Shown here in pieces: positions 25,410 to 59,190 of a stretch of 64,000 bases of DNA. The first letter of the stretch is position 1, and each line of letters starts with the position of its first letter. Source of the stretch: Candidatus Daviesbacteria bacterium GW2011_GWA1_41_61 (GTDB lineage Bacteria > Patescibacteriota > Microgenomatia > Daviesbacterales > UBA10151); assembly GCA_000997385.1 (NCBI GenBank), contig LCBT01000003.1:192892-256891 (forward strand), written 5' to 3'. Both the position numbers and the translations under genes were made by a program. The notes under the pieces were generated by a model, which was not told the origin of the DNA, made no database searches, and saw only the letters and a program-made list of their open reading frames with translations.

Positions 25410-25616
25410 CTATTGGCTTTCCAGCTTAAACAACTTAATGATTATCTTAAGATGAAACAGCTTTGGATTATCTAAGATATCCTTTGCCCTTAAATATGCA
25501 GCATAATTTAGCGCAGAATTTTCCTTTAATGGCTGTAAATTTACTTTTTTGCGGTCTATATTAGTTCGATCAATAATATCTATTACAAAATCCCTGTTTA
25601 CTTCATTGGGGGACAT
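25410..25616 (-). CDS. Hypothetical small protein (68 aa)
   Basis: ORF only. Confidence 0.3.
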   Translation of the reverse strand: MSPNEVNRDFVIDIIDRTNIDRKKVNLQPLKENSALNYAAYLRAKDILDNPKLFHLKIIIKLFKLESQ

Positions 25617-25779
25617 TAAATACTAGAGGAGTAGCTATTGCTTTTAGGACTAAAACTGGGTTTGTTTTGTAAATTAAACCAATGGATACAATGTCCTGGC
25701 GCAGAACCGATATACAGTATTTACAAATTGAAGTTAAATCGAGAGTTCTAATTTGCTATAGTCAGCTAATAGAGATATA

Positions 25780-27192
25780 ATGTCAAAAATTATGGGTCTA
25801 TGTGATCTAGAGATGGATCGAAGGAAATTTTTATATACCTTAGGCGTATTAGGCCTAAGCACTGTAATTGGATCTTGCACATCACAGCCTGATAAACTTC
25901 CAGAAGGTACCGCTCCTACACTTCAGCCAAGATTAACCCCTACACCTGGTACAGCATTAATCTCTACACCTGAAACAATACCAATCGTTGAACGAGAGAA
26001 AGGTCCGGCTGGTAAACTTCTAGTATTCACCAATCCGGAGACACACTACGGGCATGAATACTTAGAACAGAATTTGGAAAAGGTTGAAGAAGCCGCAGTA
26101 GTACTGACTAATTCGGATGGTAGTGAACCAAGACGTATTACTAACTCAAACCTAATTTCTCTACCAGCCTGGTCTCCATCAGGTGACAAGTTTGCCCTTC
26201 AGCGGTATGTCAGAGGACCTCAATTCGACTCGAGTGATTTATGGATTCTTGATAAGTTAGGTAATCGTTTGCAACGAACAGGTTTAGTTCCAAGTCCGGC
26301 AAAGTTGTCTTGGTCACCAGATGGAAAGCTTATTATCTTTAGTTCCCGTTTCTATAATTCCCGTTTACAACGGGTTTTCGGTTGGCCACCAGAGCAAAGA
26401 ACATCTTGGGTGGATGGTATTTACTTATACGATCTCCAAAAAGATTTAACAACCCGGATTATTCCGAGCGACGCCGGATTCGACCATGACCCAGCCATCT
26501 CCCCAGACGGATCGAAGATTGTTTTTATCAACCATAAATACGGCGGGCAATTCAGTATTCTCTTGGCTCCGCTCCAACCGCTTACTCTAGACGAGAAATA
26601 TCCGCTTTCTTCTAAGGGCAAGACTCACGAACTAGCTAACGGGCTTGATTCCCTTCTTAATGCAAGCATTAGATTTCAGTGGACCCCTGATGGTAAAAAA
26701 ATTGTTTATATGTTGGAACAAGGTTCTCTAAAGGGTTCTAAAAACAAAGTTTATGTTGCCAATGTAACGAAATTGCCATCTCCTAAACCGCTAGAAATAA
26801 CAATAGATTGTCCTTCATATGTTAAAAACGACCCTTTCCCTGCCTCGGGTAAGCCTGGATCAACTCCAATTACAGAAAACTTTCATATTCTTGACAGTAT
26901 GGATCTATCAACAGATGGTAAAAAAATCGTGGTTAGTTGCCCTGGTTCATTGTTTTTTACTGATATTGACGGTAAAGAGAGAAAAACAATAAAATTGCCA
27001 AAGGCTTTATCAGGACCCCTGGACAATATCAGATGGTTGTCGGGAAATAACAGACTTGCCTTTGTTCATGAAGATCAATATTATTATATTAATGCGGACG
27101 GTTCAGGATTAATGCAAGTAGCATTTGATTTCATGAAACGCACCACCGAGAAACCGATTCCTTTGGGAGTTCTGATTTCTACTGGAAGATAA
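25780..27192 (+). CDS. TolB-like PD40 beta-propeller lipoprotein with a Tat-like signal (alternative start at 25813, MDRRKFLYTLG...VIGSC)
   Basis: Repeated WSPSGDK, SWSPDGKLIIFSS, AISPDGSKIVFIN, QWTPDGKKIVYM, STDGKKIVVS PD40 blades. Lipobox-like IGSC. Confidence 0.7.
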   Translation: MSKIMGLCDLEMDRRKFLYTLGVLGLSTVIGSCTSQPDKLPEGTAPTLQPRLTPTPGTALISTPETIPIVEREKGPAGKLLVFTNPETHYGHEYLEQNLEKVEEAAVVLTNSDGSEPRRITNSNLISLPAWSPSGDKFALQRYVRGPQFDSSDLWILDKLGNRLQRTGLVPSPAKLSWSPDGKLIIFSSRFYNSRLQRVFGWPPEQRTSWVDGIYLYDLQKDLTTRIIPSDAGFDHDPAISPDGSKIVFINHKYGGQFSILLAPLQPLTLDEKYPLSSKGKTHELANGLDSLLNASIRFQWTPDGKKIVYMLEQGSLKGSKNKVYVANVTKLPSPKPLEITIDCPSYVKNDPFPASGKPGSTPITENFHILDSMDLSTDGKKIVVSCPGSLFFTDIDGKERKTIKLPKALSGPLDNIRWLSGNNRLAFVHEDQYYYINADGSGLMQVAFDFMKRTTEKPIPLGVLISTGR

Positions 27193-27324
27193 CATAGATC
27201 ATTAAGGCAAGTAGCTCTACATAATTATAATTTTTTCAGCGACAAAGAGGATCCACTAGCGAACGATATTCGGATTTATGCAAATATTACTATAACCAAC
27301 AGTACAAACCCTTGTGGGATAAAA

Positions 27325-28065
27325 CTATTTGTCTCGTGCTGGCCAAAGAAAGTAATACTCTTCTACCTTTTTACCAACTAAGTTTGCTTCACCAACCTTT
27401 ACCATATTTGCATTGAATTGACTGGTACAACGGAAGATTGGGCTACCATCAGTTCCATAGTGAACTTCTTCAATTTTAATACCTGAAAATTTTTTATTTC
27501 CATCCACTAAACCCTCGATAACATTCGCTTCAGCAAAAATCTTTTCTGCTCCTGGCTTTAAAGTCCTAGCTTCTTGAGGAAAATCCCCGTAACCACCAAT
27601 AAGAAAGACGTTCATAAAACCCAATGTTCTATATTCTTGAGCTAAAGGCCAAAGAAGATGCGGGTTCTGATATTCCCTATAAAAAGTTAGGACTTCACCA
27701 TAGGCAGATCCAAAAACTTCAGGCGGAGTGTTATAAAAAGGTTTCTTGTTGGGGTCTTTTAAATAAATAGACCTCCCCGCCTCAAGATTACTTTTACCAA
27801 CATAGTTTTTACTCTCCAATTGCTTGTAGATTTGACCAAAAGCTTGCTCTCTAAAACCACGCTCACTCCAAAGTGGTTTTATTTTTAAAGGATCACCTCC
27901 TTCGGGTTTTTTATCTACAGTTGGAATTATTGGAGAACTTAGCTTTGTTGCTTTTACACTTCCCTCGGATTTATCTGCAGCACTACATGTGGGAGCAACT
28001 AAAATAGCAATTCCTCCAATAGCCAACTGGAGTAAATTCCTTCTAGTTATAAGTCTTTCAGACAT
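27325..28065 (-). CDS. Tat-signal secreted hypothetical protein
   Basis: N-terminus MSERLITRRNLLQLAIGGIAILVAP is a twin-arginine signal. Confidence 0.55.
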   Translation of the reverse strand: MSERLITRRNLLQLAIGGIAILVAPTCSAADKSEGSVKATKLSSPIIPTVDKKPEGGDPLKIKPLWSERGFREQAFGQIYKQLESKNYVGKSNLEAGRSIYLKDPNKKPFYNTPPEVFGSAYGEVLTFYREYQNPHLLWPLAQEYRTLGFMNVFLIGGYGDFPQEARTLKPGAEKIFAEANVIEGLVDGNKKFSGIKIEEVHYGTDGSPIFRCTSQFNANMVKVGEANLVGKKVEEYYFLWPARDK

Positions 28066-28396
28066 AATAAGTTAGCAGTGTCCCTATATTAGCATAATAG
28101 TAAGCAAGACGCGTTAATAGAGATTTACCAACCAGAGGTTGATATGCCTATTGGTAAATAGAGTTTGGGTCGGAGACGGCAGTCGCTACCGCATATCGGC
28201 TACGGGATCAAAAGTCGCTCGCTTTTACCGTCGCCTACAGCGACCGTAAAACAATTCTTATAAATAAGGATTGTTCGTTCGCCAAAAGACTGTCTCGCAG
28301 AACTCGACAGACTTTTGTTTTGACCCCTCCGCTTAACAACCCATTCTTAGTCAAACCCCTTAATCAATTACCAGATGAATAAAGGGGGTGAAATAT

Positions 28397-28540
28397 ATGC
28401 AACTGCTTACAAAAGAAATAACAACAAAATTACCATTTTTGTATACACAAGAAGACGAAGCAGATCTTACTAGATCAAAAATTACAGTTTCAGCTTCATT
28501 TCCTGTTTTTGCGATACAAAAAGGGTATAAAAACCACTAA
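28397..28540 (+). CDS. Small ORF (47 aa) with a strong Shine-Dalgarno
   Basis: aaagggggtgaaatatATG. MQLLTKEITTKLPFLYTQEDEADLTRSKITVSASFPVFAIQKGYKNH. No homology recognisable. Confidence 0.3.
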   Translation: MQLLTKEITTKLPFLYTQEDEADLTRSKITVSASFPVFAIQKGYKNH

Positions 28541-28619
28541 TGATGAAATGAGTTCGCTCGAACCTGAAAGTAGCTTGATAGAACAAGCTAATCTAAAAAA
28601 TAATCTAAAAAGTTCTCTA

Positions 28620-28704
28620 TGGTGCCGGGGACAGGAGTTGAACCTGCAAGCCTTGCGGCAATAGGTCCTAAACCTATCGCGTCTGCCAGTTTCGCCACCC
28701 CGGC
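28620..28704 (-). tRNA. tRNA-Leu (anticodon TAG), CCA encoded
   Basis: Acceptor GCCGGGG/CCCCGGC, anticodon stem ATAGG/CCTAT with loop TTTAGGA, long variable arm. Confidence 0.85.
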
Positions 28705-28733
28705 GTAAGTGTATTTTATCAGATATCAGAGGA

Positions 28734-29452
28734 TTAACCAAACCTGGAAATGGCTGTCTGGTAAGCTTTAATTTCCAGATCATCATCTAGAGGGCTTAGT
28801 TTAATCTTCTTACCATATTTGATATCTAAAACTTTTTGGATAAACCAGTCAGTAAATTGAGGATTCTTTGGCAGTAATGAACCATGCATGTAGCAGCCAA
28901 CAGCATTTTTGTAGATACAGCCTTCTGTATGGTCTTCCCCATTATTACCAAAACCCTTAATAACCTTACCAAGAGGTTGCCCACCCTCTTTTAAGTAAGT
29001 TTTACCCGAATGGTTCTCAAAACCCACGATTAGTTGATCAGTTAACTTGACTATAATGTTGCCTATCATCCGATCATAACTGGCTACAGTATAAACAGGA
29101 AAAAGGTTAACCCCTGGTAACTTTGGTCCATCATGGGGTTTGTAATATTCTCCTAAAAGCTGATAACCTCCACAAATAGATAACAGCGGTACTCCCCTCT
29201 CTATTTCCTCTTTGATTATTTTCCCCTTTCCGCTTTCCTCTAAATCTTTAGCTACTAACGCTTGGGCTTGATCTTGTCCTCCACCAAAAAAGAATAGATC
29301 AACCTCTCCAGCTTTAAGTTTATCCTTTAAGGAGATATTTTTAACTTCAACTCCAATCCCCCTCCACTGAGCCCTTTTTTGTAAGGCAATAATATTGCCC
29401 CTATCTCCATAGATATTCATACAGTCTCCATAGAGATAGCCAATAGTCAGTT
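28734..29452 (-). CDS. gatD: Lipid II isoglutaminyl synthase glutaminase subunit GatD (CobB/CobQ-like GATase)
   Basis: MKLTIGYLYGDCMNIYGDRGNIIAL..., the catalytic SICGGYQLLGEYY Cys, and the HGS motif. The longer ORF start would overlap the tRNA. Confidence 0.75.
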
Positions 29453-29475
29453 TCATAGGGAAATTGTAGCACTTT

Positions 29476-29946
29476 TCACTTCCAAGCATGGATATACGTG
29501 GCAACAATAGCCGGTAAAGTAGAAAGTGGGTGCATTGAGAGGTGGAAGAGTAAGCTGTTCCCTCCTTCGCCCCGGGGGTCTTCTTTAACCAACCATTCAA
29601 CCTCCTTTTTAGACAATAATCCGGGTATTCCTTCATATAACTTGCTCCAAAAAGTTATACCGTCTTCTAATGGTCGGGTAGCGCAATTACGATTTTGACC
29701 AACTTTATCAAGCCACATATTATCTTTCCACCATTCTTCTGGCATTTTTACCTGAGCAATATGTTCAACATAAAGCCTGGTACAAGTTTCCTGTTCCTCT
29801 TTTTCCATAAGAAAAGATGCTTTGATAAATTTTTCATATAAAGATTGGGTTTGAGGATCTTCAAAGATGGGTGGTTGGCTAACATTATTTATTAGTTTTT
29901 GAAGATATTCTTGTTCAATTTTTCCTAATTCTGATTCCAATTTCAT
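29476..29946 (-). CDS. Hypothetical protein (156 aa) between murT and gatD
   Basis: ORF only. Trp-rich. Confidence 0.45.
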   Translation of the reverse strand: MKLESELGKIEQEYLQKLINNVSQPPIFEDPQTQSLYEKFIKASFLMEKEEQETCTRLYVEHIAQVKMPEEWWKDNMWLDKVGQNRNCATRPLEDGITFWSKLYEGIPGLLSKKEVEWLVKEDPRGEGGNSLLFHLSMHPLSTLPAIVATYIHAWK

Positions 29947-30203
29947 AAATCATCTGGAGTTTTATCTGGTTCTAGTTGGCATTCTTCAGGGGTCAGAAAG
30001 TAAAGCTTAATAGCGTGCCATCCCCGCACTGTTCCATACCGAGTTGACCAGGCAGGGACTTCGGTCACTTGACGGGAAGCATAGATCATTTTAAACGGAA
30101 CTCCTCTCCTTTCCAAGGCTCTTCTTAATGCCCGAGACTCAGGAGAATTATCCAGGGTTAAAGTTATTTTCGGTTCTCTCCTAGACTCACCTTCTGCAGT
30201 CAT
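29943..30203 (-). CDS. Hypothetical protein (86 aa)
   Basis: ORF overlapping the downstream ORF by 4 nt. Confidence 0.4.
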   Translation of the reverse strand: MTAEGESRREPKITLTLDNSPESRALRRALERRGVPFKMIYASRQVTEVPAWSTRYGTVRGWHAIKLYFLTPEECQLEPDKTPDDL

Positions 30204-30427
30204 GGATCTTAGATTAATTTAAATAGCAGTCTTTTGCAAGCAGCATATGGCAGCTCTGGTAAAACTACACAAAAGAGTGGTTTTAGCTTTTAACCGTTTT
30301 GACAGATTACAGAGAGAATTTAATCAAAACTTCTAGTGGATCTGGCTCCCGAAGAAGAATCCTGCTTGTGTCAGTAGTGGCTATATCATAGAAAGCTCTA
30401 AAAAATTGGTTATACTCTGCTCAAGGT

Positions 30428-31762
30428 TTAATCTTCTTTCCAGTAGTGTTTCTTTAGACCTTGTTGAACTAAGATCTTTTGTATCCCCAGCATGGCTGTA
30501 TAAGTAGGTAAGATAAACAACCGTCCTTTTAAGCCTTCTGTAGCCTGTTGTAGAGCCTTTTTAAGGTTGTTTTCCACCAGGATGGCTTCAGGCTTAAACC
30601 CGGCGTATTTAAGCCTCAAAGCTAGATCAGAAGCCCTGGTACCTGAGGCAAAAATTAGGAAGTCCCTCGACCCTGCTCGGGGTGAATTTTGAAGTAATTC
30701 AAAATCCGCATCCCAGATCCAGGAAACATCTGTCCCATCAGCTAAGTTATCATTTAAAGCTATCAGTAACCTATCCTCTGGTTTGAGCTCTCCTTTTAAA
30801 GTTTCAAAAACCTGAGTAGCTCCGGTAGGATTTTTGATTAATAAAATATATCCTCCCTCGTTTTTGTGCCTCCACCCCGGTGGTGGCAGGGTAAACTTCT
30901 CTACCCTGCCAAAAGCCGGGGAGAAGCTTTTTAAAGCTTGGATAATAACTTTTTTCTCTATTCCCAGTTTGGAAGCTGCCACATAGGCTGCCAGGAAATC
31001 ATAGATATGATAGATCCCCGGTAAAGGAAGCAGAAAATCCCACAAACCATCACTTTCTTTGAGCTCAAATTTAACTCCGTCCAGGCCGAGTAATGTGACA
31101 TTTAAAGCTTCTAAATCAAGCTTTTCCTGTCCTACTTTTTTAAAATGCTCTTCCCCTCTGATTTTGTAATTTTCCACCCCAAAGGTAAAAACTGGTCCTT
31201 TAAAACATTTTTTTAAAGATAAGAGTTTGTGATCATCCCCGTTTAAAAAAAGGGTGGTATTGGGTGGCATATTTTTTAGGGTTTGGCACCATTTTTTAAC
31301 AATACTGTCAACCTCACCGTATCTATCCAGCTGATCCCTAAAGATATTAAGGCAGATGATAATTTGAGGTTTTAATTTAGGCACTATCTGATTAAAAGCA
31401 GCTTCATCAAGTTCCCAGATAGCCAAATCAAAGTTTTTTAGTCCGCCGGTTGGCAGATGGGAGCAGGAAATTAGAGCTGAAGCAATACCTCTTTCCAAAT
31501 TTGATCCTGTAGAATTTCTGATCACTTTTAATCCAGAGCTGGTGGCAAAATGAGCTAACATTCTGGCAGTAGTAGTTTTGCCGTTGGTGCCAGTAATAAC
31601 AATGGTTTGAGGAATTTGGGAAGCAAGGTCAGAAACCAAATCAGGATAAATTTTTAAAGCATACAGTCCTGGAGCTGCTGAACCTCCGCCGATCTTTAAT
31701 ATAGTGGTTATCTTGAAAATCAGTTTCCCCACAGTTAAAGCCAGGATTTTCCTTGCCTGCAT
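30428..31762 (-). CDS. murT: Mur-ligase-family lipid II isoglutaminyl synthase MurT
   Basis: ITGTNGKTTTARMLAHF P-loop, Mur ligase central domain, and C-terminal DUF1727-like region. Partner gatD is downstream. Confidence 0.8.
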   Translation of the reverse strand: MQARKILALTVGKLIFKITTILKIGGGSAAPGLYALKIYPDLVSDLASQIPQTIVITGTNGKTTTARMLAHFATSSGLKVIRNSTGSNLERGIASALISCSHLPTGGLKNFDLAIWELDEAAFNQIVPKLKPQIIICLNIFRDQLDRYGEVDSIVKKWCQTLKNMPPNTTLFLNGDDHKLLSLKKCFKGPVFTFGVENYKIRGEEHFKKVGQEKLDLEALNVTLLGLDGVKFELKESDGLWDFLLPLPGIYHIYDFLAAYVAASKLGIEKKVIIQALKSFSPAFGRVEKFTLPPPGWRHKNEGGYILLIKNPTGATQVFETLKGELKPEDRLLIALNDNLADGTDVSWIWDADFELLQNSPRAGSRDFLIFASGTRASDLALRLKYAGFKPEAILVENNLKKALQQATEGLKGRLFILPTYTAMLGIQKILVQQGLKKHYWKED

Positions 31763-31806
31763 GAAGAAATTTTAAACTTTAGACTTTAAGAAAACAAGGC
31801 AAAGAG

Positions 31807-32460
31807 CTAATTTAAGGCTAAAGCAGCAGAGTTGCCAGCTGTTTTAAAGATTAAAGTCGGGGCTTTATCCTTATCTGAGGATTTGGTGTATTGCTTTTCA
31901 AATTTTTCCATATCAGCTAAGAAATGGGAAACTTTAGCTCCCCAAGTGGGTGAGGCAGCATAAACCCTATTAATAGCATAAGGATTAGTTAACCCTTTAT
32001 TTAGGTAATTGGTTCTTAATCCTTCAGACACTGTATAAATACCTTCTTTCCAGGATTTAAAGTAAATAGCCTGAGTTCCATAAACTCCCCATCCCCAGCC
32101 ATTATAGGAGCTATAAGGGGTTCCTGATCCCCCGGGAACATGTTTACCAAAAGTGGATTCAACTCCTGAGATAGCAGCTACAAGTTTCCAGTCCAGGTTG
32201 TATTTATCAGCTGCATCCACAAAATTCTGAGCTTGATATTGTAAGGGAGAGTTATATTTTGTCAAATAAGCTTGGAGGATTTGGGCTCTTTTATCAATAG
32301 TACTCGAGACAATTTCTTCCTTTTGGGAGCCGGTATTTGGGCCAATAGTATCCGTAGCCCCCAGAGGCCCGTTTACTAAAAAGATAGATAATAGTAGCAA
32401 GGTAACAATTTTTTTGTTAAACATACATTTCTCCAGGGAAGAAAGGATTTTCTTCCCCAA
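31807..32460 (-). CDS. Secreted peptidoglycan hydrolase-like protein (glucosaminidase/GH73-like, lysozyme fold)
   Basis: Signal peptide, then LVAAISGVESTFGKH and YAINRVYAASPTWGAKV resembling glucosaminidase motifs. Confidence 0.5.
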   Translation of the reverse strand: MGKKILSSLEKCMFNKKIVTLLLLSIFLVNGPLGATDTIGPNTGSQKEEIVSSTIDKRAQILQAYLTKYNSPLQYQAQNFVDAADKYNLDWKLVAAISGVESTFGKHVPGGSGTPYSSYNGWGWGVYGTQAIYFKSWKEGIYTVSEGLRTNYLNKGLTNPYAINRVYAASPTWGAKVSHFLADMEKFEKQYTKSSDKDKAPTLIFKTAGNSAALALN

Positions 32461-32591
32461 AGAAAAAAATCCTGGAGTCTGAGGGGTAATACTCCAGGAT
32501 TTGTTGTCAATTATACCCTATAGGCATAAAAAAGTCAAATTAAGAGGGCAGGAAATCCGGAGAGAATTCTGGTAAAATATCTAGGTATTAT

Positions 32592-32678
32592 GGGCGGGTG
32601 GCGAAACTGGCAGACGCGCTACGTTCAGGTCGTAGTTCCAGCAATGGAATGCAGGTTCAACTCCTGTCCCGCCCACCA
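32592..32678 (+). tRNA. tRNA-Leu (anticodon CAG), CCA encoded
   Basis: Acceptor GGGCGGG/CCCGCCC, anticodon loop TTCAGGT, long variable arm. Confidence 0.85.
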
Positions 32679-32679
32679 A

Positions 32680-32766
32680 GCCGGGGTGGCGAAACTGGTA
32701 CACGCGATAGATTGAGGTTCTATTGCCGCAAGGCTTGCAGGTTCAACTCCTGTCCCCGGCACCATG
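32680..32766 (+). tRNA. tRNA-Leu (anticodon GAG), CCA encoded
   Basis: Acceptor GCCGGGG/CCCCGGC, anticodon loop TTGAGGT. The 3' half is identical to tRNA-Leu(TAG). Confidence 0.85.
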
Positions 32767-32774
32767 GTATAATG

Positions 32775-32850
32775 GACTCGTAGCTCAGTTGGTTAGAGCG
32801 TCTCATTTACACTGAGAAGGTCGAGGGTTCAAGTCCTTCCGAGTCCACCA
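32775..32850 (+). tRNA. tRNA-Val (anticodon TAC), CCA encoded
   Basis: Acceptor GGACTCG/CGAGTCC, anticodon stem TCTCA/TGAGA, loop TTTACAC. Confidence 0.85.
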
Positions 32851-32853
32851 TCT

Positions 32854-32926
32854 GCCTCAGTTGCCAACGTGGTCAAGGCGGCGGTCTGAAGAACCGTTTA
32901 TGTGGGTCCGATTCCTACCTGAGGCA
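32854..32926 (+). tRNA. tRNA-like gene, predicted anticodon GAA (Phe), with a non-canonical D-arm and T-loop
   Basis: Acceptor GCCTCAG/CTGAGGC (7 bp), anticodon stem GCGGT/ACCGT with loop CTGAAGA. Only a 3-bp D-stem. T-loop TCCGATT lacks the TTC. Confidence 0.45.
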
Positions 32927-32936
32927 CAAAGTAGGT

Positions 32937-33638
32937 TTACAAAATTCTTAAAGTAGGTACAATAATAGCCCCATAAGTACCTTTTATTGTTTCTGAATAA
33001 ACTGTGGTTTGTTGTTCTAAAAGTAATCTAATTGAACCATTTACTTTGTAGAAGCGTGAGCTTGGTGGTAAATCCTGAAGTGAGTGTGCTCTCCAGTATA
33101 AGCGGGAAAAACCTCGATTAAAATTACCTTCTCCTAAATCATTAAGTAGGCTAGAAACAGTGTCCAAAATATCCGCATCGTGGCGATATCCGCTAGGGTG
33201 AAAAACAAAAACCACACCACTAATATCTGCTGGCTGATCATCTTTTATGTCGCCAGTGACTAGTATCCGTTCTCGAGCTTCCTCATCTGTAAGCCCAACT
33301 TTTCTAGCCAGGGGTTTAACAAGTTTACCTCGGCAAGCATTGATTTGTTCGCCGTCAAAGATCCCTTCAAAATATTTAGCTATTCCAGTTAAGGTTAAAA
33401 CCTCTTGGGCATAAGCGGTACTGCCTTGAGTTGTAATAAAGTTACGGCAGTTATGATTGCATAGTTTCTCCAGGAATCCGGTAACTCCTTTCCTTAAACA
33501 TTTAAGCGATAATTCTTCATCATAAGAGGCATTTGGCCCGCGTCTGTTTGTAGCAATTGGATAGAAATTACCCAAGGTGTGCTCTAGATCCCAGCCAAAT
33601 ATTTTACCTTCAACCATAGAGCGTATTTTACAACTCAA
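32937..33638 (-). CDS. Hypothetical protein (233 aa)
   Basis: ORF only. Weak HAD-like resemblance, not supported. Confidence 0.45.
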   Translation of the reverse strand: MSCKIRSMVEGKIFGWDLEHTLGNFYPIATNRRGPNASYDEELSLKCLRKGVTGFLEKLCNHNCRNFITTQGSTAYAQEVLTLTGIAKYFEGIFDGEQINACRGKLVKPLARKVGLTDEEARERILVTGDIKDDQPADISGVVFVFHPSGYRHDADILDTVSSLLNDLGEGNFNRGFSRLYWRAHSLQDLPPSSRFYKVNGSIRLLLEQQTTVYSETIKGTYGAIIVPTLRIL

Positions 33639-33695
33639 ACAGTTCTAAGTACAGTATTAAGTTAGTGAAAGTTGGGTAGACAAACAAGAACAGTA

Positions 33696-34478
33696 TCAAT
33701 GAATAAAAAGTTTATAAAGCGCAGTTTGTACGCGGTCTGGATCACCATCTCTTATAATATTATAGGCAGAATCGGTCGGTTTCCAGTCTCCGTTAAAGGC
33801 AACAATACCGTTTCTTCCGTTGTAGTCGATGAACTTAATCTCCCCGTTTGGGCCTATTCTTAAGTTTTCCAGATCGGGCTTAAAAACTATCTGACCATTA
33901 TTTTCCATACTACCAATAACAAAGTCCCCATGAGCTTGTCCTGTTCGGGCGATAACTTTTCTATAACGATAAATAAATTGATCAATACTTACTTTTGTTA
34001 CTTTTGCGCCTTCTAGCGTCGTACCTCTCTTTAGATATTCGGTAACAGCCATCCCATAGAAAGGTTGTTCGGTTCCTAAAACTTCTCCCGCTTCATTTTC
34101 TATAATTTTTGTTGGTAGAACTACTGTTTCCCGAAGATCAGGATCTTGACTGAATTCTTCATAGAATCGTACTTGATTTCTGGCCTGCTGCGTACCTACC
34201 TGGTTAGTGGTCTGTACTATGGCAAAAACTTTTTTATTTTCGCTATCTGAGAACACTTCTTTAGAAGTGCCTCCCCCAATTCTTTTAATAATAGTACTTT
34301 CTGCTAATTGACCTAGATAGGTTCTTCCCTCATCTGTTAACCTTCCGTGTGAGTCTAAAAAATTCACAGGAGATAGAACCCTTTCCAGCCTGTGTGTCTT
34401 TAATGGCGTTTCTACTTTGCTGGTACTTATATCAGTCTTATGAACAAGGGGTAATTCTGTAGCTACTGCATCACTCAT
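33696..34478 (-). CDS. Atypical protein-kinase-like / phosphotransferase-fold protein
   Basis: Gly-rich loop IGGGTSKEVF, Lys in KVFAIVQ, and HGDFVIGSMENNG (HGD catalytic loop). IDYNG corresponds to DFG. Confidence 0.45.
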   Translation of the reverse strand: MSDAVATELPLVHKTDISTSKVETPLKTHRLERVLSPVNFLDSHGRLTDEGRTYLGQLAESTIIKRIGGGTSKEVFSDSENKKVFAIVQTTNQVGTQQARNQVRFYEEFSQDPDLRETVVLPTKIIENEAGEVLGTEQPFYGMAVTEYLKRGTTLEGAKVTKVSIDQFIYRYRKVIARTGQAHGDFVIGSMENNGQIVFKPDLENLRIGPNGEIKFIDYNGRNGIVAFNGDWKPTDSAYNIIRDGDPDRVQTALYKLFIH

Positions 34479-34539
34479 GCTATTTTAATATATCACATAA
34501 CTTGCAGGCATAGGTATATAAAAGTATAATTTGTCTGTT

Positions 34540-34611
34540 GCGGCGGTAGTTCAGTGGTAGAATGTCTCGTTGCCAACGAGAAGGTCGCCGGTTCAAATCC
34601 GGTCCGCCGCT
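34540..34611 (+). tRNA. tRNA-Gly (anticodon GCC)
   Basis: Acceptor GCGGCGG/CCGCCGC, anticodon stem TCTCG/CGAGA, loop TTGCCAA. Confidence 0.85.
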
Positions 34612-34612
34612 C

Positions 34613-34840
34613 CTAAGTTAGTCTTTGCAGGTTTTGTTTAGCCTCTTCCAGATGTTGATAAATGTCAGGTGTAATAACAAATCCACTGATGGATGCTAAA
34701 TCTGATGGTGAGGCTTCTCTGCTTCCGGGTTTTTCTATAATTTTATTTACTCTAATAATTCCAGATTCAACCTCTTTTTCTCCAGCGAAACCGTACTTTT
34801 TAAATCCATCTTCAGTAGTATTTTTTTTACTCATGGTCAT
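34613..34840 (-). pseudogene. C-terminal fragment of a GalU-type sugar-1-phosphate nucleotidyltransferase
   Basis: ...IIEKPGSREASPSDLASISGFVITPDIYQHLEE matches the C-terminal EKP...PSNLA..GRYVLTPDIF block of UTP-glucose-1-P uridylyltransferases. The N-terminal 200 aa are absent. Confidence 0.5.
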
Positions 34841-34907
34841 TATTTAGCATAAAAACACTGCTTTTTACAAGCAGTGTTTTCAAATAATTACCGTTCTACT
34901 AAAATAA

Positions 34908-35108
34908 CTATTTACTTTTCGCAGAACCAAACATTACATAAGCCATATAAACGGCTGCAGCTCCCACTAACAAATAGACCATCTTTTCTAAAGATGATCC
35001 TGTACCCAATATTGCACTAACCAAGTTAAGATTCAGAAGGCCTATTAGACCCCAATTTAAAGCACCAATTAAAACTAAAACTCCAGCAATCGGTTTTAAG
35101 TCTTTCAT
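34908..35108 (-). CDS. DUF378-family small membrane protein (start at MKDLKPIAG)
   Basis: VLIGALNWGLIGLLNLNLVSAILG signature. RBS ggggtgag precedes the ATG. Confidence 0.6.
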   Translation of the reverse strand: MKDLKPIAGVLVLIGALNWGLIGLLNLNLVSAILGTGSSLEKMVYLLVGAAAVYMAYVMFGSAKSK

Positions 35109-35215
35109 TTTCTCACCCCCTCTATCTATTCTAGTATGCTCAGATTTCAAAACCCTTGTCAACAGATTGATCATCAATCCCCAATTAGGTATAATTCTCG
35201 TTGTCTTGATGTAAA

Positions 35216-35290
35216 TTGCCGGGTCGTCTAATGGTAGGACATCTGTCTTTGGAACAGAGAATTCTAGGTTCGAATCCTAGCCCGGCAGCC
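35216..35290 (+). tRNA. tRNA-Gln (anticodon TTG), U1:A72, CCA encoded
   Basis: Acceptor TGCCGGG/CCCGGCA, anticodon stem TCTGT/ACAGA, loop CTTTGGA. Confidence 0.85.
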
Positions 35291-35530
35291 AGTAAGAATT
35301 GGAAAGAGGTCGGGAGGTAGCGCTTTCCGCGCCTTTACCCTGAGGAACGTAGGGCGCCTCCGCGGAAAGCGCGTCAAATCCGCCTTTTTTGAAACTTGCG
35401 GACAGCCGCCGATCCAATAAAAAGAAGTTCGAGCCGACAGTTTTTGCCGTGATAGATAAATCATGGCAACTATTTTTTGCGCGCGCGATTTTGCGATTGC
35501 TTCGCAATCGCTTATTTTTTTACTCCGGGA
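35291..35530. repeat. GC-rich palindrome-dense non-coding block immediately 3' of tRNA-Gln
   Basis: Perfect 12-bp inverted repeat agcgctttccgcg...cgcggaaagcgc. Palindrome gcgattgcttcgcaatcgc. 16-nt ttcgagccgacagttt repeated again at 37597. Local GC far above the window average. The ORFs here are spurious. Confidence 0.45.
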
Positions 35531-35531
35531 G

Positions 35532-37364
35532 TTAGGCCCCTCCAAATATTTTTGCTGATACTTCACTGGATAATGGGTCATTATAAACTCTTTGAGGCAA
35601 ATCCCAGTAGTTTTCTGTCCCATAGGCTCGGGAGGCGGCACGGAATGAGTAATACAATTCTCCTGTCCTATTATATCTAAAGGCTTTTTTGTCCTTGCCT
35701 TCCAATTGACTGTTTACATACTCAAAAGCCTTTCTAATACCTCTTCCATCATCTGTTTGATAATTCCATAAGTCTACACCGTGCTTTTTAGCAATAGCAG
35801 CCATTTCACTCAAAGCAAAAAGATTAAATACCTGATAATCTAGGGACATATCTCCCCGTTTGGTTTCCTCAGTCATTTCTCCATCCGGCATTATTTGTGT
35901 TTTCATTCTTTCTTTTGTTGATTGAATGGCTTCTTTGACAACCTCTTCCCTTCCTAAAAAGTCGGCAACATACGCAACCTGAGCATCATAAAAAGTTCCG
36001 TGATTATTTAGCATCGCTCTCTCTCCTCCTCGTTCCTTTTCATTTCCAGCGTCCTTTTTCCCAATACCTTTTTCACTTGTTAGCAACCAATTCAAGTATT
36101 GGTCAAACCACTTTCTAACTCCATCAAGAGTTTCTTCATCAATCAAACCAGCATCTCTTAAGTTACTAATACCTTCAACGACCTGCATTAATCCCGCACC
36201 ATCAATAATTCCATAAAAATTACCGCTTTCCTCACCTTGTTTTATTTGAGCATATTCTAAGGAAGGGGTCATCCGTGTTTCATCGTTTACAAACCAGGTT
36301 CTTATCGCAGATACAGCATAATTTCCAAATCTTTCTTTTTGCGTGCCGTCCTCAGTGGCGTTTGCCGCTAAGGAACAAATATAAATTGCGTTTTTAATTG
36401 TTTGGAGCTTTTTAGGGTCTTGATAACTTTCTACCTCGGGATTGATAACTGTGTCCACCTGCTTTGGTTTACCGCTTTCATCTAAGTGCCAATATGGAGA
36501 TAGTGATACAAAGTCCCTTTTGTCTCCTGATGGAGAATTGTTTTTATCTGTAATTAAAGGTATTGGGGTAAGAATTATTTTCTCAGCAATTTTTAACACT
36601 TCGTTTCCGTTTTCTTGCTTTTCTATTTCTGTAGTCTGCACATCAATCATTGCCCCCTTTGCTATTTCAAAAAAATTAGTGTCTATACTCCTACCACTAT
36701 CAATATATTCTTTTACCGTTGGCCTTAATTTTTCACCTAAGGTTTTCCTTTGTTTAACCGACCTTTCATCAGCCTTTTTGGCGGCAGGAGCTATACTTCC
36801 TATTGGTTCAACATCTGGTGCGTAGATACCTTGAATAGCGTATGCGATACCCTCGTCCAATAAGGTTGAGGCTCTTCCTTGTTCATTAGGAAAGCCAGTA
36901 ACAGCCTCAAAATCGGACGAAAACTTAGAACCTGGCCTACTGTCTAATAATCCGTGGACGCCTTCGTGTAATGCTGTTGAGGCGGTAAGGGCAATTGCTA
37001 ACCCACCGACTACCTTATCTTTGTCCTCCTCTTTTACATCTTTGAGTAAAGGTTCAATAAATCCTCTTGTTTCAGAAATAGCCTGTTCTCTGCCTGGTAG
37101 CTGAAGTTCAATAACTGTTCCTTTTATTGTTCCTTCGCCAATTTTCCCGTCAACCAGCTGAACACTAAGGTCTTGATGATGGCATCCGCCATATTCACCT
37201 AGAAACTTGTGAGCCTGACTTAGAGCTATATCCACATTATCTGCTTTTAGTCTTTCAGATAATGCGAACTGTTGAGACGCATCTTTGTTTTGTCTGGCAT
37301 CATCTACCCTCATATTAAACCTCATTTCTTGCTTTGGAGCTGTTTCCGCACCTTCGCCATCCAT
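35532..37364 (-). CDS. Two-domain protein: N-terminal HExxH metallopeptidase-like region fused to a C-terminal alginate-lyase/heparinase-type (alpha/alpha toroid) polysaccharide-lyase-like domain
   Basis: TASTALHEGVHGLLD (HExxH) at ~aa 120. C-terminal half has RAMLNNHGTFYDAQVAYVADFLG resembling the NNH(S)YW motif of PL5 alginate lyases. No N-terminal signal peptide detected. Confidence 0.55.
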   Translation of the reverse strand: MDGEGAETAPKQEMRFNMRVDDARQNKDASQQFALSERLKADNVDIALSQAHKFLGEYGGCHHQDLSVQLVDGKIGEGTIKGTVIELQLPGREQAISETRGFIEPLLKDVKEEDKDKVVGGLAIALTASTALHEGVHGLLDSRPGSKFSSDFEAVTGFPNEQGRASTLLDEGIAYAIQGIYAPDVEPIGSIAPAAKKADERSVKQRKTLGEKLRPTVKEYIDSGRSIDTNFFEIAKGAMIDVQTTEIEKQENGNEVLKIAEKIILTPIPLITDKNNSPSGDKRDFVSLSPYWHLDESGKPKQVDTVINPEVESYQDPKKLQTIKNAIYICSLAANATEDGTQKERFGNYAVSAIRTWFVNDETRMTPSLEYAQIKQGEESGNFYGIIDGAGLMQVVEGISNLRDAGLIDEETLDGVRKWFDQYLNWLLTSEKGIGKKDAGNEKERGGERAMLNNHGTFYDAQVAYVADFLGREEVVKEAIQSTKERMKTQIMPDGEMTEETKRGDMSLDYQVFNLFALSEMAAIAKKHGVDLWNYQTDDGRGIRKAFEYVNSQLEGKDKKAFRYNRTGELYYSFRAASRAYGTENYWDLPQRVYNDPLSSEVSAKIFGGA

Positions 37365-37700
37365 ACATTAATATTACTACAAAGAGATATTAATCTTCAT
37401 TAATGACTTGTTTTAACCGTAGATTTTATGTATATTGATATCGGACTCAATAATTTAAGAAGTCGCTTTTTTGAATGGCGCAATCGGACAACAGAAAGCG
37501 ATTTCTTGTTGAGTCCACCGGTTGCGCCATTTGAGTTTAATAAAAAGTTCTTTAAAATTTTTGCGTTTTTTTCTTTCGTTTGAAAAACGAATTCGAGCCG
37601 ACAGTTTCGGAGGCGCGGCGGGTGGGGGCGCCGCGCTGGAGCAAGCGAGGCCGAAGGCCGAGCTAACCAAATGAAGTTCAACATTTTTTGTAAACGGCCA
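37365..37700. repeat. Second GC-rich hairpin-dense non-coding block, upstream of the fusion gene, with direct repeats of block 35291-35530
   Basis: Contains ttcgagccgacagttt (37597-37612) and aataaaaag shared with block A. GC hairpins include ggccttcggcc (a UUCG tetraloop on the minus strand) and gcggcg...cgccgc. Confidence 0.45.
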
Positions 37701-37739
37701 GCCAGTATATGTGCCCTAGGGACTCAAAATTCTGGAAAA

Positions 37740-55083: not shown

Positions 55084-55178
55084 TGGTTAGTGGAATTTGA
55101 CGCTTAATTTAATAAGCGGCTGAGATTGTAAGTTCAATTTAATAATTTGTCAAGTTTTTTGTAAGGACAAGATAGGGG

Positions 55179-59061: not shown

Positions 59062-59190
59062 AGAAGTTTCTTAAGTCTTGCTCTCCTTAAGAAGCAATTT
59101 GGACTTTTATTGAAACTGTGAGCATCTTAATTTACCAGGGTAAGAAGTAAAATTATTCACGGTAATAGCTTTGTAAGAGTTTAATCTCCG

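What the first reader, a model, noticed from the sequence alone, without database searches (positions are those of the whole stretch)
35216..37700. tRNA-Gln-adjacent cassette: HExxH-peptidase / alginate-lyase-like fusion gene flanked by GC-rich palindromic blocks and 16-nt direct repeats
Immediately 3' of tRNA-Gln, a 240-nt GC-rich block packed with perfect inverted repeats (12-bp agcgctttccgcg/cgcggaaagcgc, gcgattgcttcgcaatcgc) precedes a 610-aa gene. A second GC-rich hairpin block follows it. Both blocks contain ttcgagccgacagttt and aataaaaag in direct orientation, bracketing ~2.15 kb. The gene fuses a zincin-like HExxH region to a PL5/heparinase-type lyase-like domain (LNNHGTFYDAQ) and has no obvious signal peptide. 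The arrangement looks like a cassette or mobile unit (MITE-like or attC-like ends) delivering a polysaccharide-degrading enzyme. It may relate functionally to the alginate-like synthesis locus at 53.8-60.5 kb, since alginate producers need a lyase.
Basis: partly seen in the sequence, partly recalled or inferred. Interest (0 to 1): 0.65.

Follow-up and report, generated by a model that had tools for sequence, protein, structure and literature searches.

The report
Recombinase-less lyase cassette at tRNA-Gln
The two GC-rich blocks around this polysaccharide-lyase gene are the conserved end modules of a very abundant, apparently undescribed family of serine-recombinase elements that sit just after tRNA genes in CPR bacteria. 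Here the recombinase has been replaced by the lyase gene, and the resulting island also occurs, base for base, in a second genomic context.

Summary
In detail: tRNA-Gln, two GC-rich hairpin blocks, an exact 16-nt direct repeat 2,164 nt apart, and a 610-aa minus-strand gene with a PL38-like alginate-lyase domain and an invariant HExxH…E N-domain.

The blocks are not lyase-specific. The 16-mer recurs in more than 100 CPR genomes, usually 113-117 nt after a tRNA. There it lies inside the 3' end of a large serine recombinase (LSR) gene, encoding K-T-V-G-S-N. Block A is the last ~70 codons of such an LSR. Block B is the family's second module, carrying the same core, hairpins, promoter-like sites and a tRNA-3'-end mimic.

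Evidence that the core is a recombination site:
- The two cores co-vary between LSR subfamilies.
- Five genomes carry the exact core-to-core deletion.
- 4-7 LSR-less loci carry other cargo between direct cores.
- One Daviesbacteria allele breaks exactly at the core; another carries an intact LSR at this tRNA-Gln.
- A 2,394-nt identical copy of the island sits behind a different tRNA-Gln 5' half.

Best reading: an LSR-less, SCC-like cassette mobilisable in trans, not a MITE or integron. Unresolved: the cores are inverted in LSR-bearing loci, no circle or same-species empty site was seen, and an RNA-level role remains possible.

The parts
35167..35195 (+). Promoter-like site (TTGATC-17-TATAAT) upstream of tRNA-Gln.
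   Evidence: Consensus scan. 10 of 12 positions match. This is a consensus match only.
35217..35291 (+). tRNA-Gln(ttg). Its 3' 33 nt (35259-35291) travel with the island in allele L154.
35292..35427 (+). Module R1'. This is the tRNA trailer with the GC-rich hairpin H1 (35320-35372, carrying a 21-nt insert). On the minus strand it encodes the C-terminal tail of a large serine recombinase (FFL.DRRL..GF..).
35428..35443 (+). Core copy 1 (TTCGAGCCGACAGTTT). On the minus strand it reads K-T-V-G-S-N. It is the putative crossover core (attR-type site hp1|core|R1).
35444..35492 (+). Hairpin hp1' plus a U-run, which looks like an intrinsic terminator for the tRNA transcript (35444-35479). It is followed by the conserved 'cgcgcgcgatttt' (L1d').
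   Evidence: Across loci, hp1 has 30 distinct stems among 41 unique copies, with 364 Watson-Crick, 8 G.U and 5 A.C pairs.
35283..35492 (-). Remnant of a large-serine-recombinase gene, covering aa 439-501 only. The body of the gene is absent.
   Evidence: tblastn with the L063 LSR gives 85.7% identity, E 4.5e-30, and is the only hit in the 64 kb. The remnant lies within ORF 35277-35507.
35493..35521 (+). Hairpin gcgattgc-ttc-gcaatcgc plus a T-run. It lies between the recombinase remnant and the lyase stop codon. The same hairpin is present in the LSR-less loci L086 and L088.
35532..37364 (-). 610-aa cargo gene. It has an N-terminal HExxH..E domain (aa 1-~245) and a PL38-like (alpha/alpha)-barrel polyuronate lyase domain (aa 276-556, nt 35697-36539).
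37423..37450 (-). Promoter-like site (TTGAGT-16-TAAAAT), 58 nt upstream of the lyase ATG. It lies inside the conserved R2 module, and the same motif is seen next to unrelated genes in other loci.
   Evidence: window 37431-37707 matches L049.
37474..37531 (+). Distal R2 hairpin with a 14-bp stem. It is conserved in structure, through compensatory changes, across loci.
   Evidence: I4; z -4.7 on +, -3.6 on -.
37531..37591 (+). Second promoter-like site (TTGAGT-16-TAAAAT, 37531-37558). It is followed by the family-wide motif gttctttaaaatttttgcg (R2d', 37547-37565) and hairpin hp2' (37564-37589).
37592..37607 (+). Core copy 2, identical to copy 1 and in direct orientation (attL-type site L2|core|hp2). 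Allele L007 diverges exactly after 37607.
37608..37673 (+). Module L2hp', the GC-rich hairpins (37612-37637 and ggcc-gaa-ggcc). It is absent from allele L007 and present as a solo copy in L148.
37674..37707 (+). Degenerate core (gaagttcaaca), a U-run and 'gtaaacggccagcca', which mimics a tRNA 3' end. CAGCCAGTA (37699-37707) repeats 35286-35294. This is the outer right boundary of the conserved unit.

Best explanation
The region 35259-37707 is a tRNA-Gln-linked recombination island. It is built from the two end modules of a widespread family of ~2-kb large-serine-recombinase (LSR) elements that lie directly 3' of tRNA genes in CPR/Patescibacteria.

**What the parts are**
- Block A is the tRNA trailer. 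On the opposite strand it encodes the last ~70 codons of the LSR, and the 16-mer encodes KTVGSN.
- Block B is the family's second module. It carries two promoter-like sites, covarying hairpins, a second copy of the same core and a tRNA-3'-end mimic.
- In this Candidatus Daviesbacteria allele the recombinase body is missing. A gene for a PL38-like lyase with a zincin-like N-domain lies between the modules. It is probably transcribed from the module's promoter-like site at 37450-37423.
- The two cores are in direct orientation.

**Shown**
- The homology of both blocks to the LSR family.
- The remnant status of the recombinase here.
- Co-variation of the two cores between subfamilies.
- Natural recombinants whose breakpoints fall at the core.
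- The same island in a second genomic context.
- An LSR-bearing allele in the same species.

**Inferred**
- The 16-bp cores are the crossover cores of LSR att sites: attL = L2|core|hp2 and attR = hp1|core|R1.
- The lyase unit is therefore an integrated, recombinase-less cassette, like a pseudo-SCC element.
- An LSR supplied in trans could excise it to a circle (attP = hp1|core|hp2), leaving the hybrid attB (L2|core|R1) seen in other genomes. The same LSR could re-insert it.
For: **1. Family membership of the blocks**
About 100 of them are CPR and carry the same flanking modules.
- In 66 loci a same-strand tRNA ends 93-149 nt upstream of the core, and in 58 of these the distance is 113-117 nt. 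These tRNAs cover 18 anticodon types.
- 51-52 loci have an ORF of at least 440 aa running through the core. It carries Resolvase + Recombinase + Zn_ribbon_recom domains.
- The protein family has at least 7,913 members at E <= 1e-30.

**2. Recombinase remnant**
- The window holds only aa 439-501 of the LSR, at 85.7% identity and E 4.5e-30.

**3. Core co-variation within elements**
- L134 has AAACTGTCAGCTCGAA and AAACTGTCAGTTCGAA.
- L136 has AAAAAGTCGGCTCGAAC at both sites.
- The Gln type has AAACTGTCGGCTCGAA at both sites.

**4. Exact core-to-core deletion elsewhere**
- In L120, L130, L018, L066 and L047, the alignments to window ...-35443 and to window 37579/37592-... overlap on a single core.

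**5. Other cargo between direct cores**
- Four LSR-less loci (L025, L058, L086, L088) and probably L123, L114 and L119 hold different genes between direct cores. They share block A up to 35492-35525 and block B from ~37526.

**6. Same-species polymorphism**
- L007 is 100% identical over 12 kb and diverges exactly after 37607.
- L143 and L146 are 99.9% identical up to 35411 and then continue into an intact LSR gene.

**7. Second genomic context**
- L154 equals window 35259-37652 with 0 mismatches in 2,394 nt.
- It has six substitutions in tRNA positions 6-42, an A6.C67 acceptor-stem mismatch and an unrelated upstream flank.

**8. No conserved synteny**
- Lyase orthologues at 81-88% identity lie in unrelated contexts without the blocks. 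Similarity stops at the CDS.
Against: - In ~35 LSR-bearing loci the two cores are inverted, not direct. The LSR is additionally flanked by ~85-100-nt inverted copies of R1. A simple attL-element-attR model does not explain this.
- No attP-type junction, circle or flipped state was found.
- No empty site from the same species was found. The one metagenome scan did not even contain the window's own contigs.
- Two of the same-species breakpoints are not at a core. One is at 35411 and one lies inside the tRNA. Homologous recombination in conserved sequence could produce L154.
- All hairpins keep their pairing through compensatory changes, with a G.U excess on the tRNA-sense strand. Both cores sit between a promoter or tRNA and a terminator-like hairpin. 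Core co-variation could therefore reflect RNA-RNA pairing rather than DNA exchange.
- The mosaic LSR in L148 has non-matching cores.
- No att site of this LSR family has been tested experimentally.
Confidence: 0.6

Rival explanations
1. Relic plus RNA modules. The blocks are remains of a decayed LSR element, and the surviving parts are two small transcription units. One is the tRNA-Gln trailer RNA, antisense to the former LSR 3' end. The other is a promoter-driven RNA carrying the same 16-nt core, which in intact elements forms the LSR leader. The 16-mer is kept identical because the RNAs pair with the LSR mRNA for antisense or autoregulatory control. The lyase gene arrived by illegitimate or homologous recombination and is not mobilised through the cores.
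For: - Promoter-like and terminator-like sites bracket both cores in the same polarity.
- Every hairpin covaries, with a G.U excess on the tRNA-sense strand.
- The distal hairpin has z -4.7.
- In LSR loci the block-B promoter-like site points into the LSR through a ~450-nt leader that contains R1' and core'. Both are complementary to the LSR 3' end.
- The cores are inverted in LSR loci.
- No circle was seen.
Against: - The exact core-to-core deletion occurs in five independent genomes.
- Four to seven loci carry different cargo between the same direct ends.
- The L007 breakpoint falls exactly at the core edge.
- No Rfam family matches.
- The thermodynamic z-scores of the blocks are only -1 to -2.
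- Recombination and RNA roles are not mutually exclusive.
Confidence: 0.22
2. Classical tRNA-targeting genomic island. The whole ~2.4 kb was inserted into the 3' part of tRNA-Gln by an integrase, with the tRNA 3' end as the att core. The internal 16-mers are only leftovers from nested or successive insertions.
For: - The crossover in L154 lies inside the tRNA T-arm region, 35259-35283.
- CAGCCAGTA is repeated at 35286-35294 and 37699-37707.
- A conserved 'gtaaacSgccagcca' mimic of a tRNA 3' end closes block B in many loci.
- The T-loop GGTTCGAATCC resembles the cores.
- A separate element is integrated at tRNA-Gly in other alleles.
Against: - No tyrosine integrase or other integrase lies next to the island.
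- The distal repeat is only 9 nt plus a degenerate stretch.
- In other genomes the boundary between variable host sequence and conserved element sequence is at the end of the tRNA, not inside it.
- The crossover in L154 could be homologous recombination.
Confidence: 0.12
3. One reading: an integron-type (attC) cassette or a MITE-like non-autonomous transposon.
For: - The ends are hairpin-rich and a single gene lies between repeats.
- The cargo varies between loci.
Against: - The terminal repeats are direct, not inverted.
- The junctions read GTTTCGG and GTTTTTG, which do not fit GTTRRRY.
- The associated recombinase is a serine recombinase, not IntI.
- The unit carries a promoter-like site of its own.
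- No target-site duplication other than the core itself is present.
Confidence: 0.03

Closest known systems
SCCmec and pseudo-SCC elements (CcrA/B and CcrC large serine recombinases) at the 3' end of rlmH in staphylococci. This comparison is from my own knowledge, not from a tool.
   Same: - A large serine recombinase family is involved.
- Insertion is next to a conserved housekeeping gene.
- The elements are bounded by ~15-18-bp direct repeats.
- Recombinase-less derivatives carry cargo.
- Tandem or composite arrays of units are separated by repeat copies.
- Mobilisation in trans is plausible.
   Different: - The target here is the 3' flank of tRNA genes of many specificities, not rlmH.
- The elements are tiny, ~2 kb with the LSR as the only gene.
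- One att-like core lies inside the LSR reading frame, and the LSR 3' end overlaps the tRNA trailer in antisense.
- In LSR-bearing copies the two cores are inverted.
- The hosts are CPR bacteria.
Integron gene cassettes (IntI tyrosine recombinase, attC sites).
   Same: - Single-gene cassettes with structured, hairpin-forming ends.
- Variable cargo between conserved recombination sites.
- A platform-borne promoter.
   Different: - The recombinase is a serine recombinase, not a tyrosine recombinase.
- There is no attI or attC architecture and no GTTRRRY.
- At most 1-3 units are present rather than long arrays.
- The cassette carries its own outward promoter-like module.
tRNA-gene-targeting integrative elements whose att site overlaps the integrase gene, such as the SSV1-type archaeal integrases. 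This comparison is from my own knowledge.
   Same: - The element is linked to a tRNA.
- The att-like core lies inside the recombinase ORF.
- Recombinase fragments are left next to tRNA genes.
   Different: - SSV-type integrases are tyrosine recombinases, and integration splits their gene.
- Here the LSR ORF is normally intact next to the tRNA, and only its last ~70 codons remain in the window.
Hin/Gin-type invertible segments (small serine invertases).
   Same: In LSR-bearing loci the recombinase gene lies between inverted copies of a short, identical site.
   Different: - The enzyme is a large serine recombinase of ~500-530 aa.
- No flipped state was observed.
- In the window the sites are direct.
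PL38 and PF05426 alginate/glucuronan lyases (8BDQ, 3NFV).
   Same: - Pfam PF05426 matches at E 4.5e-62.
- Sequence matches to solved structures are 3nfv at E 1.2e-32 and 8bdq at E 3.4e-27.
- The NNHG..YD.Q motif aligns.
   Different: - The gene carries an extra 245-aa HExxH..E N-domain that the solved enzymes lack.
- It has no evident signal peptide.
- Its substrate is unknown.

Membership tests
Large-serine-recombinase integrative element or cassette | A recombinase with Resolvase, Recombinase and zinc-ribbon domains belongs to the unit. | tested here: inconclusive
   - The window holds only the C-terminal remnant, aa 439-501.
- Intact LSRs occur in 51-52 related loci and in a same-species allele.
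- The window unit is therefore a recombinase-less derivative.
Large-serine-recombinase integrative element or cassette | The unit is bounded by two att sites that share a short identical core in direct orientation. | tested here: met
   There are 16-nt exact direct repeats at 35428 and 37592, with different arms on each side.
Large-serine-recombinase integrative element or cassette | An unoccupied site (attB) exists with one core flanked by the outer arms. | tested here: met
   L120, L130, L018, L066 and L047 have this structure. These are other genomes only; none was found in the same species.
Large-serine-recombinase integrative element or cassette | An excised circular form or attP junction exists, and the recombinase acts on these sites. 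| not testable with these tools
   - No hp1|core|hp2 junction was found among the loci.
- Two viral-contig scans gave 0 hits.
- This needs read-level data or biochemistry.
Integron cassette (attC) | The cassette boundary lies in a GTTRRRY core of an attC hairpin, linked to IntI. | tested here: not met
   - The junctions read GTTTCGG and GTTTTTG.
- The associated recombinase is a serine recombinase.
MITE | A short non-coding element with terminal inverted repeats and a target-site duplication. | tested here: not met
   The unit is 2.2-2.4 kb, encodes a gene and has direct terminal repeats.
tRNA-integrating genomic island | A direct repeat of the tRNA 3' part lies at the distal end, with an adjacent integrase. 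| tested here: inconclusive
   - There is a 9-nt repeat, CAGCCAGTA, plus a degenerate mimic.
- No integrase is adjacent.
- The L154 crossover lies inside the tRNA.
Alginate_lyase PF05426 / PL38-like | A profile match above the curated cutoff, with the conserved NNHG..Y motif. | tested here: met
   - The score is 210.5 bits against a cutoff of 22.2.
- The alignment to 3nfv shows NNHGTFYDAQ against NNHGLAYDVQ.
- 8BDQ is listed as PL38 in PMC12088678.
- Catalytic activity was not tested.
Zincin (gluzincin) metallopeptidase | HExxH plus a downstream Glu ligand on a zincin fold. | tested here: inconclusive
   - H133, E134, H137 and E171 are invariant.
- The model has mean pLDDT 88.4.
- Foldseek against PDB gave nothing at E <= 0.001. 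The top weak hits are the M4 ProA peptidase (E 0.05) and collagenase H.
- There is no Pfam or PDB sequence hit.
Known RNA families (Rfam 15) | A covariance-model match at the gathering score. | tested here: not met
   Only tRNAs reach gathering score. In E-value mode over both blocks there were only chance-level hits.

The most novel reading that the evidence does not exclude
The family is a new kind of minimal serine-recombinase element with three unusual properties.

- It homes to the 3' end of essentially any tRNA gene.
- Its two covarying, promoter-driven structured RNAs, both carrying the 16-nt core, take part in site choice or in control of recombination. One RNA is the tRNA trailer, antisense to the recombinase 3' end. 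The other is the recombinase leader.
- In short, it would be an RNA-assisted or RNA-gated large serine recombinase, with recombinase-less gene cassettes such as this lyase moved in trans.
Probability: 0.12. Interest if true: 0.88.

Novelty: new variant of a known kind. Interest (0 to 1): 0.62.

Why it matters
- **A possible route of gene flow in CPR bacteria.** Little is known about how genes move in these organisms. Here a very abundant ~2-kb serine-recombinase element family, with thousands of homologues, marks the 3' flank of tRNA genes. It appears to provide landing sites where single genes for surface or polysaccharide-active proteins are swapped.
- **A set of candidate recombinase-site pairs.** Large serine recombinases with defined short att cores are sought as genome-engineering tools. 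This family offers many natural recombinase/site pairs in which the cores co-vary.
- **An unusual gene overlap.** The recombinase reading frame overlaps a tRNA trailer, and hairpins are maintained inside coding sequence. This dual constraint is worth testing.
- **For the organism itself.** Possession of the lyase is strain-variable and recently transferred.

Tried and rejected
- **Rfam.** The scan at gathering score and the E-value scans over both blocks found only tRNAs and chance hits. A known ncRNA family (tmRNA, RNase P, SRP, 6S) is rejected.
- **tRNA-like reading of the core.** A T-arm fold was checked by eye and the flanking bases do not pair.
- **Coding reading of block B.** The ORFs at 37400-37684 and 37455-37670 are not conserved. 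Relatives have an in-frame stop in L2.
- **Convergent conserved gene as the source of conservation.** This first looked negative. It was then resolved: the LSR ORF runs through the core.
- **Phage origin.** Two IMG/VR scans gave 0 hits.
- **Same-species empty site or circle.** The degenerate-pattern metagenome scan returned only 3 foreign loci. The collection lacks the window's own contigs.
- **Inversion switch.** No flipped state was found among more than 100 loci.
- **Literature.** Three searches found no description of this family.
- **P0045 contig.** Its DNA was not retrievable.
- **Locus classifier.** My automatic classification of loci was faulty. Only its tRNA-distance and anticodon counts are used.
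Full report
**1. The observation**

- tRNA-Gln(ttg) lies at 35217-35291.
- It is followed by a stretch of 54-58% GC (68% in 60-nt windows) in a 39% GC window.
- A second peak of 61% GC (78% in 60-nt windows) lies at 37571-37686.
- There is a perfect 12-bp inverted repeat at 35320/35361, a hairpin at 35493-35511 and a 14-bp hairpin at 37474/37518.
- TTCGAGCCGACAGTTT occurs exactly twice in 64 kb, at 35428 and 37592. Both copies are on the + strand, 2,164 nt apart.
- The 610-aa ORF (35532-37364) is on the minus strand. Block A is therefore downstream of the gene and block B upstream of it.

**2. The gene**

*Lyase domain.*
- Pfam Alginate_lyase matches aa 276-556 at E 4.5e-62.
- The closest solved relatives are 3nfv (E 1.2e-32) and 8bdq (E 3.4e-27). 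PL5 A1-III is distant at E 1.6e-5.
- 8BDQ is listed as PL38, an (alpha/alpha)7 barrel, in PMC12088678.

*N-terminal domain.*
- The first ~245 aa have no Pfam or PDB sequence match.
- This region is a portable module. It is also fused to GH8 and to other C-termini, and in one protein it sits at the C-terminus.
- H133, E134, H137 and E171 are invariant in nine homologues.
- An AlphaFold model is confident (mean pLDDT 88.4). Foldseek against PDB gives no significant hit. The best weak hits are zinc peptidases: ProA at E 0.05, and collagenase H.
- 'Zincin-like' therefore rests on motifs only.

**3. The blocks belong to a family**

*Distribution of the core.*
- I scanned one genome per species for AAACTGTCGGCTCGAAYT, the repeat read on the gene strand.
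- About 100 of these are CPR genomes. They include Levy-, Davies-, Roizman-, Gottesman- and Woesebacteria, WWE3 and Saccharibacteria.
- Their flanks fall into a few modules.
  - Block A equals the commonest combination, here called R1'-core'-L1'.
  - Block B equals a second combination, R2'-core'-L2'.

*Link to tRNA genes.*
- In 66 loci a tRNA on the same strand ends 93-149 nt before the core. In 58 of them the distance is 113-117 nt.
- The tRNA can be any of 18 anticodon types. Gln accounts for 30 loci.
- The window has 136 nt because of a 21-nt insert in hairpin H1.

*The recombinase.*
- On the opposite strand an ORF of ~505-535 aa runs through L1, the core and R1. It stops inside the antisense of the tRNA (51-52 loci).
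- It is a large serine recombinase with Resolvase, Recombinase and Zn_ribbon_recom domains.
- The core encodes K-T-V-G-S-N.
- The family is huge: 7,913 of the 8,000 candidates scored had E <= 1e-30.
- In the window only aa 439-501 survive (35492-35283; 85.7% identity, E 4.5e-30). No other LSR sequence exists in the 64 kb.
- Block A is therefore a recombinase-gene remnant fused to the tRNA trailer.

**4. Architecture of the intact elements**

- In ~35 LSR loci a second copy of the core lies 1.62-1.72 kb away in inverted orientation. L2 faces the LSR and R2 faces outward.
- On the LSR coding strand, the upstream region reads in this order:
  1. R2': a covarying distal hairpin, a promoter-like TTGAGT/TTAAGT-16/17-TAAAAT, the family-wide gttctttaaaatttttgcg, and hairpin hp2.
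  2. core'.
  3. The GC-rich L2 hairpins.
  4. A degenerate core plus a U-run.
  5. 'gtaaacSgccagcca', which mimics a tRNA 3' end.
  6. A ~100-nt inverted copy of R1.
  7. An R2d-like stretch.
  8. The LSR start codon.
- R2 also carries a promoter-like site that points outward into whatever gene follows.
- In the window that site is 37450-37423, 58 nt before the lyase ATG.

**5. Evidence that the core is a recombination site**

(a) *The two cores co-vary between subfamilies*.

| Subfamily | Site in the LSR 3' end | Upstream site |
|---|---|---|
| Gln type | AAACTGTCGGCTCGAA | AAACTGTCGGCTCGAA |
| L134 | AAACTGTCAGCTCGAA | AAACTGTCAGTTCGAA |
| L136 | AAAAAGTCGGCTCGAAC | AAAAAGTCGGCTCGAAC |
| L133 | AAAAAAGTCGGCTCC | AAAAGTTCGGCTCGAA |

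(b) *Exact core-to-core deletion in five genomes.* L120, L130, L018, L066 and L047 have tRNA-Gln-R1'-core'-L2'. This equals the window with 35444-37591 removed. The two alignments overlap on a single core. No LSR lies within kilobases.

(c) *Other cargo between direct cores.* Four LSR-less loci (L025, L058, L086, L088), and probably L123, L114 and L119, have direct cores 1.1-2.7 kb apart.
- They hold unrelated genes, mostly secreted or membrane proteins.
- They share block A up to 35492-35525, including the same post-remnant hairpin in L086 and L088.
- They share block B from ~37526.

(d) *A same-species breakpoint at the core.* Contig L007 is 100% identical to window 25532-37607 and diverges exactly after the core. 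It continues into 'ttataaacggcca' and then an msrA/msrB/dsbD region, in place of L2 and the ABC-binding-protein gene.

**6. Mobility and a recombinase source in the same species**

- The organism is Candidatus Daviesbacteria from Rifle groundwater.
- Contigs L143 and L146 match window 34607-35411 at 99.9%. They then continue with the R2d-like stretch, a ~95-aa membrane ORF and an intact LSR co-directional with tRNA-Gln. The population therefore holds a cognate recombinase at this very tRNA.
- Contig L154 equals window 35259-37652 without a single mismatch in 2,394 nt. It differs in three ways:
  - It has six substitutions in tRNA positions 6-42. The anticodon-stem changes are compensatory.
  - It has an A6.C67 mismatch in the acceptor stem.
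  - Its upstream flank is unrelated.
- The island, lyase included, therefore sits in two genomic contexts, with one crossover in the tRNA T-arm region. This could be site-specific recombination or homologous recombination within the conserved tRNA.
- Lyase orthologues of 81-88% identity in other organisms lie in unrelated contexts without the blocks. Similarity stops at the CDS.

**7. Best model**

With arms named by their hairpins, the sites are assigned as follows.

| Site | Arms | Where seen |
|---|---|---|
| attL-type | L2\|core\|hp2 | Window block B |
| attR-type | hp1\|core\|R1 | Window block A |
| attB | L2\|core\|R1 | Hybrid in other genomes |
| attP | hp1\|core\|hp2 | Predicted only, not seen |

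- The window then shows an integrated, recombinase-less cassette.
- It is analogous to pseudo-SCC elements, and it is driven by a module-borne promoter-like site.
- It would be mobilisable by an LSR in trans.

**8. What does not fit**

- In LSR-bearing loci the attL-type and attR-type sites are inverted. This could be the locked product of an intramolecular attP x attB inversion, but the precursor state was never seen.
- LSR genes are flanked by long inverted R1 copies. The junctions R1'|R2d-like and L1d|L2 lack the core and its adjacent hairpin.
- LSR elements are also found nested inside other LSR genes, between 'FMLNI' and 'AFGQSKYY'.
- All hairpins keep their pairing through many compensatory changes, although hp1 and H1 lie in the LSR reading frame.
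  - hp1 has 30 distinct stems among 41 unique copies, with 364 Watson-Crick, 8 G.U and 5 A.C pairs.
  - There is a G.U excess on the tRNA-sense strand.
- Both cores lie between a promoter or tRNA and a terminator-like hairpin.
- An RNA-level function, such as antisense or leader pairing with the LSR mRNA, is therefore a serious rival or an additional layer.

**9. Comparison and novelty**

- The unit is not an integron cassette and not a MITE. The tested defining features were not met.
- It works most like SCC and pseudo-SCC elements, and like tRNA-linked islands.
- It differs from these in target, size, the att-like core lying inside the recombinase ORF, the antisense overlap with a tRNA trailer, and the inverted-core architecture.
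- Three full-text searches found no description of this family. That is weak evidence of novelty.
- I rate it a new variant of a known kind.

**10. Link to the 53.8-60.5 kb locus**

- That locus encodes a beta-helix protein, a GT2-LysM-beta-helix protein of 983 aa, a UDP-glucose/GDP-mannose dehydrogenase and a BNR protein.
- A uronate-containing polymer is plausible, and a polyuronate lyase could act on it. Nothing tested here links the two.

Noticed in passing
window 34540-34613 (breakpoint at 34593); L006 12773-21833, L008, L142: Other alleles of the same species diverge inside tRNA-Gly. They continue into a block of more than 9 kb with HTH, DUF5659 and Prim-Pol/PriCT_1 genes. This is an integrative element at tRNA-Gly that the window allele lacks.
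   Followed up: partly
window 37608 onward; L007 1-4523 (also L139, L151): A same-species allele joins the block-B core directly to 'ttataaacggcca' and then to a thioredoxin/DsbD/MsrB/MsrA region. The window has the L2 hairpins and the ABC_sub_bind gene there instead. This is a chromosomal rearrangement with its breakpoint at the core.
   Followed up: partly
L133 2546-6631 (LBVD01000017.1); proteins P0066, P0074, P0078, P0080, P0086, P0093: One LSR element, together with a cargo ORF flanked by ~97-nt inverted L2 copies, is inserted inside another LSR gene between '..FVLNI' and 'AFGQSKYY'. Gene callers report the result as 718-877-aa fusion ORFs.
   Followed up: partly
L148 6001-7557 and 2240-2470: This locus has a mosaic LSR. 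Its body is of the Gln subfamily, but its 3' module (hairpin, core AAACATCGGTTCGAA, tail) comes from another subfamily. A solo remnant, L1d|L2 hairpins-mimic|R1x'-CGACAG-R2d-like, lies 3 kb away in front of an unrelated gene.
   Followed up: partly
window 53782-60510: A polysaccharide locus on the minus strand. It encodes a beta-helix protein (433 aa), a GT2 + LysM + NosD/beta-helix protein (983 aa), a UDP-glucose/GDP-mannose dehydrogenase (322 aa) and a BNR-repeat protein (439 aa).
   Followed up: partly
window 36630-37364 (aa 1-245 of the lyase); P0026, P0031, P0033-P0036: The HExxH..E N-domain is a shuffled module. It is fused to GH8 and to several unannotated C-terminal domains, and in P0034 it is placed C-terminally. 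No family in Pfam or PDB matches it by sequence.
   Followed up: partly
L143 (window + orientation, about 290-580 nt after the tRNA-Gln end): A ~95-aa hydrophobic ORF with a GTG start lies between the R2d-like stretch and the LSR start codon in the same-species LSR allele. It was not called as a gene in the source.
   Followed up: no
window 32592-32927, 34540-34613, 35217-35291: The tRNA order Leu-Leu-Val-Phe ... Gly ... Gln matches the Leu/Val/Phe/Gly/Gln cluster that precedes the LSR element in L012, L022, L041 and L078. In the window, protein genes (a 233-aa HAD-like protein, a 260-aa protein, a 75-aa protein and DUF378) are interspersed among the tRNAs.
   Followed up: no
L001 5128-5148: 'gagttcgagccaacacaatt', which resembles the 'GGTTCGAGCCA' (WLEP) stretch of LSR genes, lies upstream of a NUDIX gene near an 82%-identical lyase orthologue. 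It may be an LSR remnant or chance.
   Followed up: no
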